Shown piece by piece: positions 10,276 to 56,524 of a stretch of DNA of 64,000 bases. The first letter of the stretch is position 1. Every line of letters begins with the position of its first letter. The notes beneath the pieces were generated by a model. The model was not told where the DNA came from and searched no databases. It saw only the letters and a list, made by a program, of their open reading frames with translations. Source of the DNA: Octopus sinensis (taxonomy: Eukaryota); assembly GCF_006345805.1 (NCBI RefSeq), contig NC_042999.1:40672001-40736000 (forward strand). The letters are read 5' to 3'. Made by a program: the position numbers and the translations under genes.

Positions 10276-10587
10276 TTGGAAGGTTTGGAGATGATGAGCA
10301 GGTATTATATATTAGAAGAAATGAGGTACTCAGAAGATCGGATGGTTTATATTTACATATCTTTATTTATATATTACATTTTTTATATATATATCATATC
10401 ACTTAGATCATTAGCGCTTTCTCCCATTCTAGTGGGGTTTTCAAATCAAACTTAGTTTGAAAACCCCACTCGAATAGGAGAAAGCGCTAATGATCTAAGT
10501 GATATGATATAAGTATAAAAAATGTAATATACAAATGAATATCTGTAAATATAAACCATCCGATCTTCTGAGTACCTCATTTCTAAT
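10276..10587. mobile_element. Fold-back PLE-like fragment between (TA)n arrays
   Basis: Inverted arms of ~135 bp (10311-10450 / 10455-10587) with a ~35-nt one-sided extension; degenerate HHR-like motif TTGAAAA-cccca..GAAA-gcgc-TA. Confidence 0.65.
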
Positions 10588-10974
10588 TTATATATATATA
10601 TATATATATATATATTATATATATATATATATATATATATATATATATATATCATTATAAATTCTATATACTCCGATTTAAAGCGATATCTAACTAAACT
10701 ATTGACTGAAAAGTGACGAGCTAATAGGCTAGAATAGAACCCATATATCAACGCTAACATGACTCTTTGCGTATCCGATTGAGCCAATTTGCATACATAT
10801 ATACATATATGTGCCTATATATATATATATATATATATATGTGTGGTGTGTGTGTGTGTGTGTGTGTGTGTGTTGTGTGTGTGTGTGTGTGTGTTGTGTG
10901 TGTGTGTGTGGTGTGTGTGTGTGTATATATATATATTATATATATATATATATATGCTTCTATTAGTTTACACG

Positions 10975-11370
10975 TTTTACGTTTCAGCCTTAAGGCTGTG
11001 GCCATGCTGGAGAACCACCTTTAATCGAACAAATAGACCACAGAACTGATTCTTTGTAAGCCTAGTACATATTCTATCGGTCCTTTGTCGAATCAGTAAG
11101 TAACGAGGACGTAAACACACCAGCTTCGGTTGACAAGTGATGTTGCGAGGACAAACACACAGACACACACACATACACACACACACACACACACATATAT
11201 ATATATACGACGGTCTTCTTTCAGTTTCCGTCTACCATATCCACTCACAAGGCTTCGGTCGGCCAGAGCTATAGTAGAAGACACTTGCCCAAGGTGCTAC
11301 GCAGTGGGACTGAACCCGGAACAATGTGGCTGGTAAACACGCTACTTACCACACAGCCACACCGGCGCCT
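10975..11370 (-). mobile_element. SINE family A (tRNA head, internal CA/TA microsatellite)
   Basis: Full-length match to copies such as 49523-49940. Confidence 0.93.
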
Positions 11371-11495
11371 ATACACACACACACACACACACACACCACA
11401 CACACACACACAAACACACACACACACACACACACATATATATATATATTATATAATATATATATATATATATTATATATATACCGGAGCAAAAA

Positions 11496-11533
11496 CTGTC
11501 TGATGAACGGCAACGAGAAACTCAGAGTAACAG
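11496..11533 (+). ncRNA. Minimal type-I hammerhead ribozyme motif in an 83-nt insert (11484-11566) within (TA)n
   Basis: ctgt-CTGATGA-a cg GCAA cg a-GAAA-ctcaga-GTA-acag. Stem I is ctgt/acag, the stem II closing pair is mismatched, and AATAAA lies at 11560. Confidence 0.75.
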
Positions 11534-11566
11534 ATTTTGTTGAATTTTCTGCTGCTTTAAATAAAG

Positions 11567-11738
11567 TATATATATATATATATATATATATATAGAGAGA
11601 GAGAGAGAGAGAGAGAGAGGAGAGAGACAGAGAGACAGAGAGACAGACAGACAGACAGACAGACAGACAGACAGACAGACAGACAGATAGATAGATAGAT
11701 AGATAGATAGATAGATAGATAGATAGATAGATAGATAG
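11567..11738. repeat. Compound (TA)(GA)(GACA)(GATA) microsatellite
   Basis: Directly visible. Confidence 0.95.
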
Positions 11739-53385: not shown

Positions 53386-53779
53386 CTAACAGTATCGCCC
53401 GGCGTTGCTCGGGTTTGTTTCGACCCTTTAGAATTGGAATTTTTGAAAAGTAAAAATTTTGCATTATGTAGCTTGTTAATATCTTTAAGTGAACCTTTTT
53501 CTGGTCGAAATACACCGAAAAATGGCGACATGGCAGTCAAAACATCGTAAAGAAATAGGGATTTTCATAGACAATAAGCACCATGTTGATGTAAATAATT
53601 TTTGGTTTTAACATGGTCCGATTTGAATTTTTTTCTTCTACGGAAGGAAGAGCAAGCATTCTTCAATCATACTTTCAATTTTGGTCAACTTGCGCCGCAG
53701 GGTCTCGGAGGAGATAGTGTTAGTTGAAGGCTACCCAACCTGGCATACACAGACAACTTCAGCTTAATATAGAGAGAGA
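53386..53779 (-). mobile_element. Non-autonomous Helitron
   Basis: Minus strand has a TC 5' end and 3' aaacccgagcaacgccgggcgatactgTTAG, matching the end of 20352-20746 except CTAG>TTAG. Confidence 0.82.
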
Positions 53780-54596
53780 TTTGTGAGTCTAGGTAAATGA
53801 GTATATGAGAGAGAGAGAGAGAGAGAGTGTGCGTGTGTGTGTGTGTGTGTGTTGGTATGTGTGTGTGTGTGTTTGTGTGTGTTGTGTGTGTGTGTGTGTG
53901 TGTGTGTGTGTGTGTGTGTGTGTTGAAACCTGCGGTTGTTAAATTCATGGCAGTTGTAACAGTTGCATTGCTGACGTTCAATGACGGAATGATGATAAGT
54001 TAGATGCGTTGGATATCGGTGATGTTTAGTATTGCCAGTTGTTGATTCTGGCAGTCGTCTGGTCGTTTGTTATGCTAGTTGATGATAACCGGTTGCGGGT
54101 CTAAGAGGTGTTAGAGGTGGCGCTGTCGAAGCCGAGGTAATGATAACGGTGGTACCGCGTTGTTGTTGTTGTTATTGTTGTTATTGGTGTTGGTGGTGGT
54201 GGTGGTGGTCGGTTTCACGTTGGTGGGTAGTGGAATATAGAAAGGATATGACGGCAAACAAATGAATAAAAGAAGTATTTATTATCAAGGCATGAAGCGT
54301 AGTTTTATTTTGTGAGGATGTTATTGCAAAACTGGTTAACGTTTGGCAATAGGCCATTTCAAAACCTAACCCATTGCACATGGTTGAATGGCCAGCGAGT
54401 AGCGCACATATACACGCGAAAAATAAGCGCACGCATATGCACGCACCCGTGCACACATATGTTGCTTTATCTAAATATGGACCCTCTCACTCTCTTTCTC
54501 TCTCTCTCTCTCTCTCTGATATATATATGTGGGTGTGGTGTAGATAGATATATATATAATATATATATAATATATTATATTATATATATATAACAA

Positions 54597-54821
54597 GGCG
54601 GCGAGCTGGTAGAAACGTTAGCACGCCGGGCGAAATTCGTAGCCGTATTTCGTCTGTCGTTACGTTCCGAGTTCAAATTCCGCGAGGTCGACTTGCCTTT
54701 CATCCTTTCGGGGTCGATAAATAAGTACCAGCTACGCACTGGGGTCGATGTAGTCGACTTAATCCCTTTGTCTGTCCTTGTTGTCCCTCTGTGTTTAGCC
54801 CCTTGTGGGTAGTAAAGAAAT
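54597..54821 (+). mobile_element. SINE family B, full-length, in (TA)n
   Basis: Consensus match. Confidence 0.93.
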
Positions 54822-55586
54822 ATATATATATATATATATATACACGGGTACGCATATACATATATACGTGAATATGTGTGTGTGTGTGAGTGTGTGGATT
54901 TTGTGTATGTGTACCGCTGTTTATATGTTTTTATATACTCACATATAGGAATCTAGGTATCTTGTGTGTATATCTATAACTATATATATATATTCATCTC
55001 TCTATTTATTTTTATATAAATGTATATATACTCATATACATACATGAATATATATATATATATTCTACGCTTACACACACACACGCGCACAACATGCCTA
55101 TATATATAATATATATATATATATATACACACAATATGCCTATATATATATAATATATATGTATATATATTCACAGACGCACACACACATGCACATATAG
55201 TGTGTATATGGTGATAGAAATAATAATTTAAAGGTTGTAGGATCGTTCTTCGTTTCTATAAAACACGGGAAACATCGCCTGACGAGCTGTAATGTAGTGA
55301 AACGAGTCTTTCTCCTAATGTATTGTCCTTAATATCAATAATGCAGTAATATAGTCAAGATACTAACGTGTTCGCTCCTTTCTTTGATAGCAGGATTCAC
55401 TATTTTCGTTGCATATGCATGTATACGTATGTATGTATGTATGGATGGATGGATGGATGGATGGATGGATGGATGGATGGACGGATGTATATACGTGTGT
55501 GTGTGTGTATATATGTATACAATATATATATATGTGTGTGTGCGTGTGTGTGTGTGTGTGTGTATGTGTGTGTGTGAATTGGAGAG

Positions 55587-55990
55587 GGACTGGCTGTGTG
55601 GCAAGGAGCCTTCTTGCCAGCCATACGCTTTCGGGCCCCGCCCCACTGCTTGGCACGTTAGGCAAGTATGTTTCTATAGCCTCGGACGGACCAAAGCCTT
55701 GTGAGTGGATTTGGAAGACGGAAACTGAAAGAAGCCCTTCATATATATATATATATGTGTGTGTGTGTGTGTGTGTGTGTGGTGTGTGTGTGTGTGTGTG
55801 TGTGTGTGTGTGCGTGTGTGTGTTTCTTTGTGTCAGTGTTTGCCGCCCACTCCACCCCAGCATCACCGTTTGAAAACCGGAATTGGTGTGTTCTCACAAC
55901 TTAGCGGCAAAAAAAGACCGATAGAATTTGTTCGACTAAAAACTTGAAGGTGGTGTTCAAATAAGTGAAACAAGTAAAAGAATAAAAGAA
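55587..55990 (+). mobile_element. SINE family A, diverged
   Basis: Consensus match. Confidence 0.85.
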
Positions 55991-56130
55991 TAGATAGATA
56001 GATAGATAGATAGATAGATAGATAGATAGATAGATAGATAGATAGATAGATAGATAGATAGATAGATAGATAGATAGGATTAGATAGATAGATAGATAGA
56101 TAGATAGATAGATAGATAGATAGATAGATA
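55990..56130. repeat. (GATA)n microsatellite
   Basis: Directly visible. Confidence 0.95.
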
Positions 56131-56524
56131 TACATGACCAGCGGCTGGTTCCTCTTTCTCTTCCTTTCTTAGACTGGGCCCTTAGTTGACCAGTCGCAAA
56201 TTCAGTCTCTCTGTTCTCCATCCTTCCAACAATTCTCGTCTCCGTAGCCCCTTTCTTCGATTGTTCGTCCTTTTCCACCGTCCTAAATCCCTTTCTGTGT
56301 CGTTTTCCTTGTTTTGTTTGCCCTTGTCCCTAATTCTACGCAAAAAAATTTCTTCTTTTTTTTTTTGCGTGCTCTGTCAACTGGAGAGCACTGGGTCGAA
56401 CCGTTGAAGGTGCGAAACTGAACCATTTGTTGATAACTGATGAAAAATTATGGACCTTCTGTTTTTCTCCCGTTCGTTTTTACATTAAGTATACGTTACG
56501 TCGTTTGTTTCTCTTTTTTTTTCA

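What the first reader, a model, noticed from the sequence alone, without database searches (positions are those of the whole stretch)
10276..56435. About ten unrelated minimal hammerhead families within 64 kb
Seen: HHR-topology motifs at 11496, 23735/24081, 27648, 29529, 35489, 36681, 38883/39101, ~41990, 46229 and a half motif at 47295, plus weaker ones at 10456, 28242 and 56381. Their stems are unrelated, but all share a very short, near-palindromic stem III (ACGU, ACACGUGU, ACAUGUGU, ACUCAGAGU). Established: such minimal HHRs occur in PLE termini and retrozymes and are thought to cleave as dimers. Inference: if this window is typical, the genome carries a very large and diverse ribozyme load that could cut host pre-mRNAs.
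Basis: partly seen in the sequence, partly recalled or inferred. Interest (0 to 1): 0.72.

Follow-up and report, generated by a model that had tools for sequence, protein, structure and literature searches.

The report
Penelope hammerhead tails with variant cores
The hammerhead (self-cutting RNA) motifs are real: three of the eleven families sit directly behind Penelope-type jumping genes and the rest likely do too, the genome holds an estimated 100,000 or more, and most copies here are damaged, so cutting of host RNA is unlikely; the unusual part is a very common family with a fixed change in the normally invariant core, whose cutting is untested.

Summary
Confirmed, with corrections. The window holds 17 type-I minimal hammerhead motifs or halves from 11 families (10 scored hits against 0.4-0.8 in shuffles). 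Three families lead directly to Penelope-like element (PLE) genes: one Hydra-like, two Neptune-like. The copies are 5'-truncated ends, often inverted pairs, in (TA)n, which is the known PLE picture. In 870 kb of sampled genome, 32 canonical-core motifs against 0.4 by chance give about 1e5 per genome (1.4e5 with variant cores), so the window is roughly typical. Host pre-mRNA cutting is not supported: only 6 of 17 match their family master, no intact same-strand pair exists, and inverted pairs fold back. Earlier notes of this scan reported variant cores and split-core forms on other DNA. No cleavage was tested.

The parts
10277..10588 (.). Family N: inverted pair of 5'-truncated Neptune-like PLE 3' ends between (TA)n runs; two hammerheads with U3-A8 core (10444-10412 minus, 10457-10489 plus), stem III AGCGCU
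   Evidence: GIY-YIG frame upstream in L284
11492..11540 (+). Family D minimal hammerhead, canonical core at 11500, 2-bp stem II with A.A mismatch, stem III ACUCAGAGU
   Evidence: one other copy 100% identical over 79 nt
23096..23180 (+).
   Evidence: the L099 copy has CUGAUGA
23735..23773 (-). Family A hammerhead, canonical core at 23767, stem II partly deleted; left arm of inverted pair 23688-24172
24081..24127 (+). Family A hammerhead, core G5A; right arm of the pair
27648..27745 (-). Family I hammerhead, long stem II, core G5C in this copy (relatives mostly CUGAUGA, stem III ACAGCUGU)
28181..28287 (+). Family J hammerhead, core at 28186 (U4C in this copy), 77-nt stem II region
29431..29639 (-). 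Family E: 5'-truncated Neptune-like PLE 3' end in (TA)n; minimal hammerhead 29527-29565 with family-fixed CUGUNGA (A6U) core and ACGU stem III
35489..35567 (-). Family H hammerhead, canonical core at 35563, 12-bp stem II, stem III ACACGUGU
36680..36743 (+). Family G hammerhead, core A6G in this copy
38671..39245 (.). Family B: inverted pair of 5'-truncated Hydra-like PLE 3' ends between (TA)n runs; canonical hammerheads at 38959 minus and 39104 plus; left copy carries the optional ~150-nt tail (38671-38819)
41898..42118 (.). Family A inverted pair: hammerhead at 42028 minus (G8A) and a 3' half at 42047-42062 plus
46229..46278 (+). Family C hammerhead, core C3G in this copy (12 of 19 aligned rows CUGAUGA)
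47297..47752 (-). Family K hammerhead split by a ~350-nt SINE-like repeat (47378-47720): 3' part 47297-47383, 5' part with C3A core 47725-47752
55267..55316 (+). Unresolved candidate: canonical core, 4-bp stem II, stem III ACGAGU, no core-adjacent stem I, no relative found
56367..56473 (+). Family M: decayed copy of a repeat whose consensus has hammerhead parts in scrambled order (cleavage block, GAAA, CUGA) with G8-A9 apparently split off; not type I

Best explanation
The motifs are minimal type-I hammerheads, shown for three families and inferred for the other eight to be the 3' (pLTR) ends of Penelope-like retrotransposons, left as short 5'-truncated, often inverted copies that are mostly decayed and likely do not cut host RNA. 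Shown: architecture, excess over chance, link of families B, E and N to PLE reading frames, truncation, inversion, (TA)n targets, about 1e5 canonical-core motifs per genome by sampling. Inferred mechanism: in a source element transcribed as a tandem, two same-family hammerheads pair through the palindromic stem III and swap stem I strands, probably helped by the element's protein, and trim the RNA; reverse transcription starts 35-105 nt beyond the cleavage site and usually aborts early, so nearly every insertion is a lone hammerhead without a partner. Selection acts only in source lineages, which explains conserved folds between families and neutral decay within them. In family E the source lineages have fixed A6U while keeping the rest of the fold; I read this as an attenuated or protein-dependent ribozyme (about 0.5) rather than a non-catalytic protein-binding fold (about 0.4) or a coincidence (about 0.1).
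For: Excess over shuffles in the window and in 870 kb of independent sequence; genome-wide pattern 531 against 35 reversed. With core-only anchors, stem I position 1 pairs in 0.77 of 69 against 0.47 in shuffles, using all four Watson-Crick types (16, 15, 9, 7). [quoted passage not shown] Family E: upstream frame matches Pfam GIY-YIG weakly (E=4e-4, below the curated cut-off), in sense, in several long copies. Family N: GIY-YIG frame in L284. PMC8557442 describes this arrangement; PMC4209133 describes massive, variable, mostly single minimal hammerheads with an extra base after A9 and a palindromic stem III. Family E constraint: in 23 of 30 copies found by a flank pattern (7 dropped as truncated within the motif), shared variants fall in 3 of 37 hammerhead columns (N7, H17, outer stem I) against 40 of 76 flank columns; U6 in 23 of 23, 11 of 11 further flank-found copies and 99 of the first 100 exact hits.
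Against: No reading frame was linked to families A, C, D, G, H, I, J or K (tblastn of 3-kb loci). Pfam found nothing on the family-B protein and PDB nothing relevant, so its RT and endonuclease calls rest on motifs read by eye against PMC8557442 and on unnamed homologues; its last endonuclease motifs lie in another frame after a stop. The family-E column test has non-independent columns and T-rich flanks that inflate flank variation, and other flank motifs are also conserved. A6 and U4 changes lower activity in vitro. No modelled hammerhead or dimer fold was the minimum-energy fold, and for E the dimer scored worse than two monomers. No cleavage was observed.
Confidence: 0.82

Rival explanations
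1. The load is an active hazard or regulator: lone intronic copies cut host pre-mRNAs, as weak monomers or as dimers in trans.
For: About 1e5 canonical cores; motifs with 8-9-nt stem III palindromes can form a 2-3-bp monomer stem III; animal retrozymes are reported to be excluded from introns and exons (bioRxiv 10.64898/2026.07.22.740005, abstract).
Against: 11 of 17 window motifs depart from their master; no intact same-strand pair; inverted pairs fold back with 55-178 long-range pairs; strands 9+/8-; a single S. mansoni minimal hammerhead showed no cleavage and dimers were slow; the Anolis PLE hammerhead needs the protein and no RNA-seq reads end at its site.
Confidence: 0.12
2. In family E the A6U change has killed catalysis and the fold is kept as a recognition handle for the PLE protein, so cutting is dispensable for spread.
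For: A6C gave kobs <0.1/min in a natural variant; single and double U-turn mutants other than the C3-G8 swap were of low activity; catalytic mutants of the Anolis hammerhead did not reduce insertion in vitro; sister family F has U4C in 84 of the first 100 of 5,066 hits; a young D subfamily has a core-adjacent mismatch.
Against: Variation between E lineages follows catalytic rules: all four bases at N7; A or U (C in some further copies) at position 17 and no G among 23 plus 11 copies. U4C viroid variants keep enough activity in vivo.
Confidence: 0.4
3. Several of the families without a linked reading frame are non-autonomous retrozyme-like elements that multiply through small circular RNAs.
For: Tandem 441-453-nt hammerhead repeats, 94-99% alike, occur in L176 and L179; no frame was found for eight families.
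Against: Window copies are single or inverted, 5'-truncated and end in microsatellites like B, E and N; no head-to-tail hammerhead array in the window.
Confidence: 0.25
4. The motifs are chance matches in AT-rich repeats.
For: One site (56381) fails as type I and 55279 is unresolved; relaxed descriptors give about 2 hits per 64 kb by chance.
Against: relatives or family consensuses of the damaged copies carry complete cores.
Confidence: 0.01

Closest known systems
[quoted passage not shown]
   Same: CUGANGA, extra base, stem II, GAAA, short palindromic stem III, UH, 3-5-bp stem I; many families per genome; mostly single or opposite-strand copies; the U3-A8 variant (family N) is described there for S. 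mansoni.
   Different: About 1e5 here against about 2,000-9,000 per genome there (different descriptors, so a loose comparison); many stem II regions of 50-95 nt; family-wide A6U and U4C cores were not in the text or supplement passages I saw.
Hydra-clade PLEs (Craig et al. 2021, PMC8557442; section 11 and passages)
   Same: Family B protein: single frame, C-terminal endonuclease, RW(L) and DKT motifs, no CCHH, CxxC and CxH near the end, (TA)n target, canonical hammerhead.
   Different: The CxCX5C linker is not seen; a long Asn/Ser-rich insert lies there; element about 3.5 kb; no phylogeny was run.
Neptune-clade PLEs (same paper)
   Same: Families E and N: CX2-5CxxC-type linker upstream of a GIY-YIG with internal cysteines, at the C terminus, followed by the pLTR hammerhead.
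   Different: Only the C-terminal part was seen; RT not recovered; hammerhead cores are non-canonical.
Poseidon PAc hammerhead of Anolis (Frangione et al. 2024, PMC11167929; passages)
   Same: PLE hammerhead, optional tail, AT-rich targets.
   Different: Tested in vitro there (protein-assisted, not needed for insertion); nothing tested here.
Type-SGC non-circularly permuted hammerheads (Eckert et al. 2023, PMC10085705; passages)
   Same: Family M (56381): cleavage block first, then GAAA, then CUGA, with stems I-III complementary in the consensus.
   Different: In M the G8-A9 appears to come from a separate upstream strand with extra helices; SGC examples are from metatranscriptomes with an unbroken CUGAnGA; M shows no covariation among 13 rows.
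Non-LTR retrozymes (bioRxiv 10.64898/2026.07.22.740005; part 1 of 5)
   Same: Type-I hammerheads, non-coding, thought to derive from PLE pLTRs.
   Different: Defined by tandem units, which the window copies lack.

Membership tests
Minimal type-I hammerhead (PLE type) | CUGANGA and GAAA boxes with UH, in type-I order | tested here: met
   Canonical in 5 window copies and in consensus or relatives of A, B, C, D, G, H, I, J, K
Minimal type-I hammerhead (PLE type) | Canonical core in families E and N | tested here: not met
   E fixed A6U; N has the described U3-A8 swap. They look like variants, not canonical members
Minimal type-I hammerhead (PLE type) | Stems I and II paired, with covariation across families | tested here: met
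   Core-only anchors: pairing above shuffles, four pair types at stem I position 1
Minimal type-I hammerhead (PLE type) | Short palindromic stem III | tested here: met
   29 of 46 perfect, 38 of 46 within one pair
Minimal type-I hammerhead (PLE type) | Self-cleavage as a dimer | not testable with these tools
   Crude energy model inconclusive
Penelope-like element | RT plus GIY-YIG frame upstream of the pLTR hammerhead | tested here: met
   B: 856-residue frame; E and N: endonuclease end only
Penelope-like element | Same, for families A, C, D, G, H, I, J, K | tested here: inconclusive
   No linked frame within 1.5-kb flanks
Penelope-like element | 5' truncation, inverted partial copies, optional tail, microsatellite targets | tested here: met
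Hydra clade (family B) | RWK-like and DKT motifs, no CCHH, CxxC/CxH, (TA)n target | tested here: met
   Read by eye
Hydra clade (family B) | CxCX5C linker | tested here: not met
   Not seen in the L092 frame
Hydra or Neptune clade | Placement in an RT phylogeny | not tested
Neptune clade (families E, N) | CX2-5CxxC linker and cysteines inside GIY-YIG | tested here: met
   By eye in L191; partly in L284, a damaged copy
Non-LTR retrozyme | Head-to-tail tandem units each with a hammerhead | tested here: not met
   None in the window; met at L176 and L179 outside it
Type-SGC hammerhead (family M) | S-G-C block order with stems I-III | tested here: met
   Pairs held in 71/78, 48/52 and 58/65 cells for stems I, II, III over 13 rows
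Type-SGC hammerhead (family M) | Unbroken CUGAnGA | tested here: inconclusive
   The consensus reads CUGAUGA, but its G8-A9 begins a hairpin and stem II is preceded by a separate GAA
Type-SGC hammerhead (family M) | Covariation and cleavage | tested here: inconclusive
   No compensatory change among 13 rows; cleavage untested

The most novel reading that the evidence does not exclude
The most prolific Penelope lineages of this genome have rewritten the supposedly invariant hammerhead core (A6U in at least 13,498 copies, U4C in about 4,000, U3-A8, and a scrambled split-core form) and these are working, deliberately slow or protein-gated ribozymes: the element's own protein switches on a core that is silent in host transcripts, which is how a genome tolerates more than 100,000 ribozyme motifs.
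Probability: 0.3. Interest if true: 0.75.

Novelty: new variant of a known kind. Interest (0 to 1): 0.48.

Why it matters
What would matter is the natural series of source lineages: canonical, A6U, U4C, U3-A8 and scrambled cores, each amplified hundreds to thousands of times. It makes an open question directly testable, namely whether PLE hammerheads must cut at all or serve as protein-binding folds, and it shows that CUGANGA-based searches miss tens of thousands of motifs in such genomes. With annotation, 1e5 motifs also give a well-powered test of selection against sense-strand ribozymes in introns.

Tried and rejected
Rfam scan: microsatellite-driven miRNA matches; no hammerhead among the 150 of 261 rows shown. 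First strict scanner missed nearly all motifs because it allowed no extra base after A9; the 70-nt stem II limit missed 28186. Pfam on the family-B protein and on 4 homologues gave nothing informative; PDB gave one irrelevant match. Expression: no RNA holder listed on record; contigs of four runs only guessed to be RNA cover pieces of the family-B element including the hammerhead region, but cannot show strand, ends or level. Whether the window lies in a gene remains open; no host exon was recognised in the ORF list. Dimer energies: lower than two monomers for B, D and H, higher for E, never the minimum (B's stem II only partly modelled). 56381 as type I: rejected. 45471 and 49968: no supported stems or family. 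G3-C8 cores, a lead from earlier notes: 0 in 870 kb against 0.8 by chance. Split-core order in the same sample: 1 against 0-3 by chance, so rare or missed by my descriptor. No Naiad or other frame found upstream of 12 family-M loci. In print: 'hammerhead'+'CUGUNGA' 0 papers; 'hammerhead'+'A6U' only a twister paper (listing only); hammerhead with octopus or cephalopod gave nothing on this load, apart from 235 Rfam hammerheads in giant squid. Lunse et al. (RNA Biol 14:1499) and Hammann et al. 2012 were not held; either may already list these variants or an octopus count, as may unseen supplements of PMC3088659 and PMC8557442.
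Full report
Setting. The window is G000:C3:40672001-40736000 of a 2.72-Gb, microsatellite-rich animal genome. It is probably an octopus: this is inference from size and repeat make-up, from the one species-named homologue (Argonauta hians) and from earlier scan notes.

Observation. A type-I scanner gave 12 hits, 10 at score >=6, against 0.4-0.8 in 75 shuffles. Relatives were then sought for each site. The result is 17 motifs or halves in 11 families (N, D, B with B2, A, I, J, E, H, G, C, K). 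Five have a canonical core; three more have a family-wide variant core; the rest differ from relatives in the core or are truncated. Six match their family master: 10444, 11500, 29560, 35563, 38959 and 39104.

Is it more than chance, and is the window typical? In 87 stretches of 10 kb taken at round coordinates on contigs C1-C27 (869,800 bases), canonical cores numbered 32 against 0.4 in shuffles and 0 reversed: 9.9e4 per genome (Poisson interval 6.7e4-1.4e5). Five of the 32 come from two tandem loci, so the interval is too narrow. With A6U, U4C and U3-A8 cores the count is 46 against 1.8, or 1.4e5; the U3-A8 class alone is weak (4 against 1.0). The 46 fall into 27 clusters. As a cross-check, the sample predicts about 15,000 A6U motifs and the exact pattern counts 13,498. 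The window has 4 canonical and 7 of all four classes by the same rules (P=0.21 and 0.06).

What carries them. Family B copies are 98% identical, 5'-truncated, often in diverging inverted pairs, and end at one point before (TA)n, with or without a tail. Long copies run into an 856-residue frame, L092:4238-6805, with the hammerhead at 7616. Its motifs fit the Hydra clade of PMC8557442 except for the linker. Long copies of E and N run into the C-terminal GIY-YIG region of Neptune-like elements. For the other eight families the anatomy is the same but no frame was linked. This matches PMC4209133 and PMC8557442. A repeat annotation of Octopus vulgaris notes a Penelope-like expansion and does not mention ribozymes (PMC13282606, passages).

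How it most likely works. In the published dimer model two same-family copies on one RNA pair through stem III and exchange stem I strands. From that model I infer that copies of different families cannot complement each other and that inverted pairs cannot dimerise; a transcript through such a pair folds back on itself instead. Insertions end 34-103 nt past the cleavage site in eight families measured, so the copied RNA was not cut at that hammerhead, in line with PMC11167929, where cleavage needs the protein and is not required for insertion in vitro. The genomic load is therefore mostly lone, decaying ends. Host cutting remains possible for a minority but has no support here, and the intron test could not be run.

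Variant cores. Family E has U at position 6 in 99 of the first 100 exact hits, in 23 of 23 copies found by a flank pattern that itself has 19,370 matches (7 of 30 dropped as truncated) and in 11 of 11 of the 17 profile hits that include the motif. Its subfamilies differ in the flanks, yet within 37 hammerhead columns only N7, H17 and the outer stem I base carry shared variants, against 40 of 76 flank columns (Fisher P=3e-6, overstated because columns are linked and flanks are T-rich). The sister family F, absent from the window, has U4C in 84 of the first 100 of 5,066 hits, with a canonical subfamily beside it. Family N has UUGAAAA in all full matches among the 20 loci fetched, and one distant relative shows a compensatory stem II change. 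Natural A6C and U4C variants are known and slow (PMC3088659) and U-turn mutants are of low activity (PMC9901934). I found A6U in no paper, but two key papers were not held. A figure of about 150,000 PLE hammerheads across all databases in Lunse et al. is recalled, not read.

56381. I first rejected it. Earlier scan notes on split-core hammerheads led me to reread the family-M consensus: it holds the cleavage block, GAAA and CUGA in that order, with stems I (6 bp), II (4 bp), III (5 bp) and three more helices all complementary. The 13 rows show decay but no covariation, the window copy has lost half of stem I, and I found no linked frame, so the Naiad link claimed in those notes is untested here.

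Verdict. The class is known. The scale, the constrained A6U family and the scrambled motif are the parts worth a bench test, and the scan has noted similar variants on other DNA. Papers seen: PMC4209133 parts 1-2 of 4 and supplement passages (one file not searched); PMC8557442 passages and section 11; 10.64898/2026.07.22.740005 part 1 of 5; passages of PMC11167929, PMC3088659, PMC9901934, PMC6765202, PMC10085705, PMC13282606 and PMC6962438.

Noticed in passing
L176:8075-9415 and L179:1568-2354: Tandem 441-453-nt repeats, 94-99% alike, each with a canonical hammerhead (stem I up to 14 bp, stem III ACCGCGGU): retrozyme-like arrays able to dimerise in cis; L176 also has an inverted arm.
   Followed up: partly
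L250-L279 (family F): 5,066 exact copies of a sister of family E, 84 of the first 100 with a U4C core; a canonical subfamily is marked by linked flank changes.
   Followed up: partly
L092:4238-7755: Near-complete young Hydra-like PLE with a long Asn/Ser-rich insert before the endonuclease and a frame break near its end.
   Followed up: partly
L091:2695 (+): Antisense hammerhead-like motif (CUGAAAA core, 10-bp GU-rich stem I) in the 3' UTR of the family-B element; GAAA is lost in another copy; possibly chance.
   Followed up: no
L176:1850 (-): A second, unrelated U3-A8 minimal hammerhead with clean stems.
   Followed up: no
window 1-64000: G exceeds C on the + strand almost throughout (cumulative skew 1.92); cause unknown, no host exon recognised.
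   Followed up: no
window 19697-20110, 62746-63321, 59016-59976: Fragments that look by eye like RTE-type LINE ends and a Tc1/mariner transposase.
   Followed up: no
window 24723-25889, 44201-45967, 58432-58640, 61021-62130, 39322-39640: Further long inverted repeats (79-95% alike) without a type-I hammerhead; some may be other PLE-like ends or paired SINEs.
   Followed up: no
L092: A>G and T>C are the commonest differences in two of the four run sets laid on the family-B element; copy divergence cannot be told from editing.
   Followed up: no
window 42911-43010: Assembly gap of 100 N.
   Followed up: no
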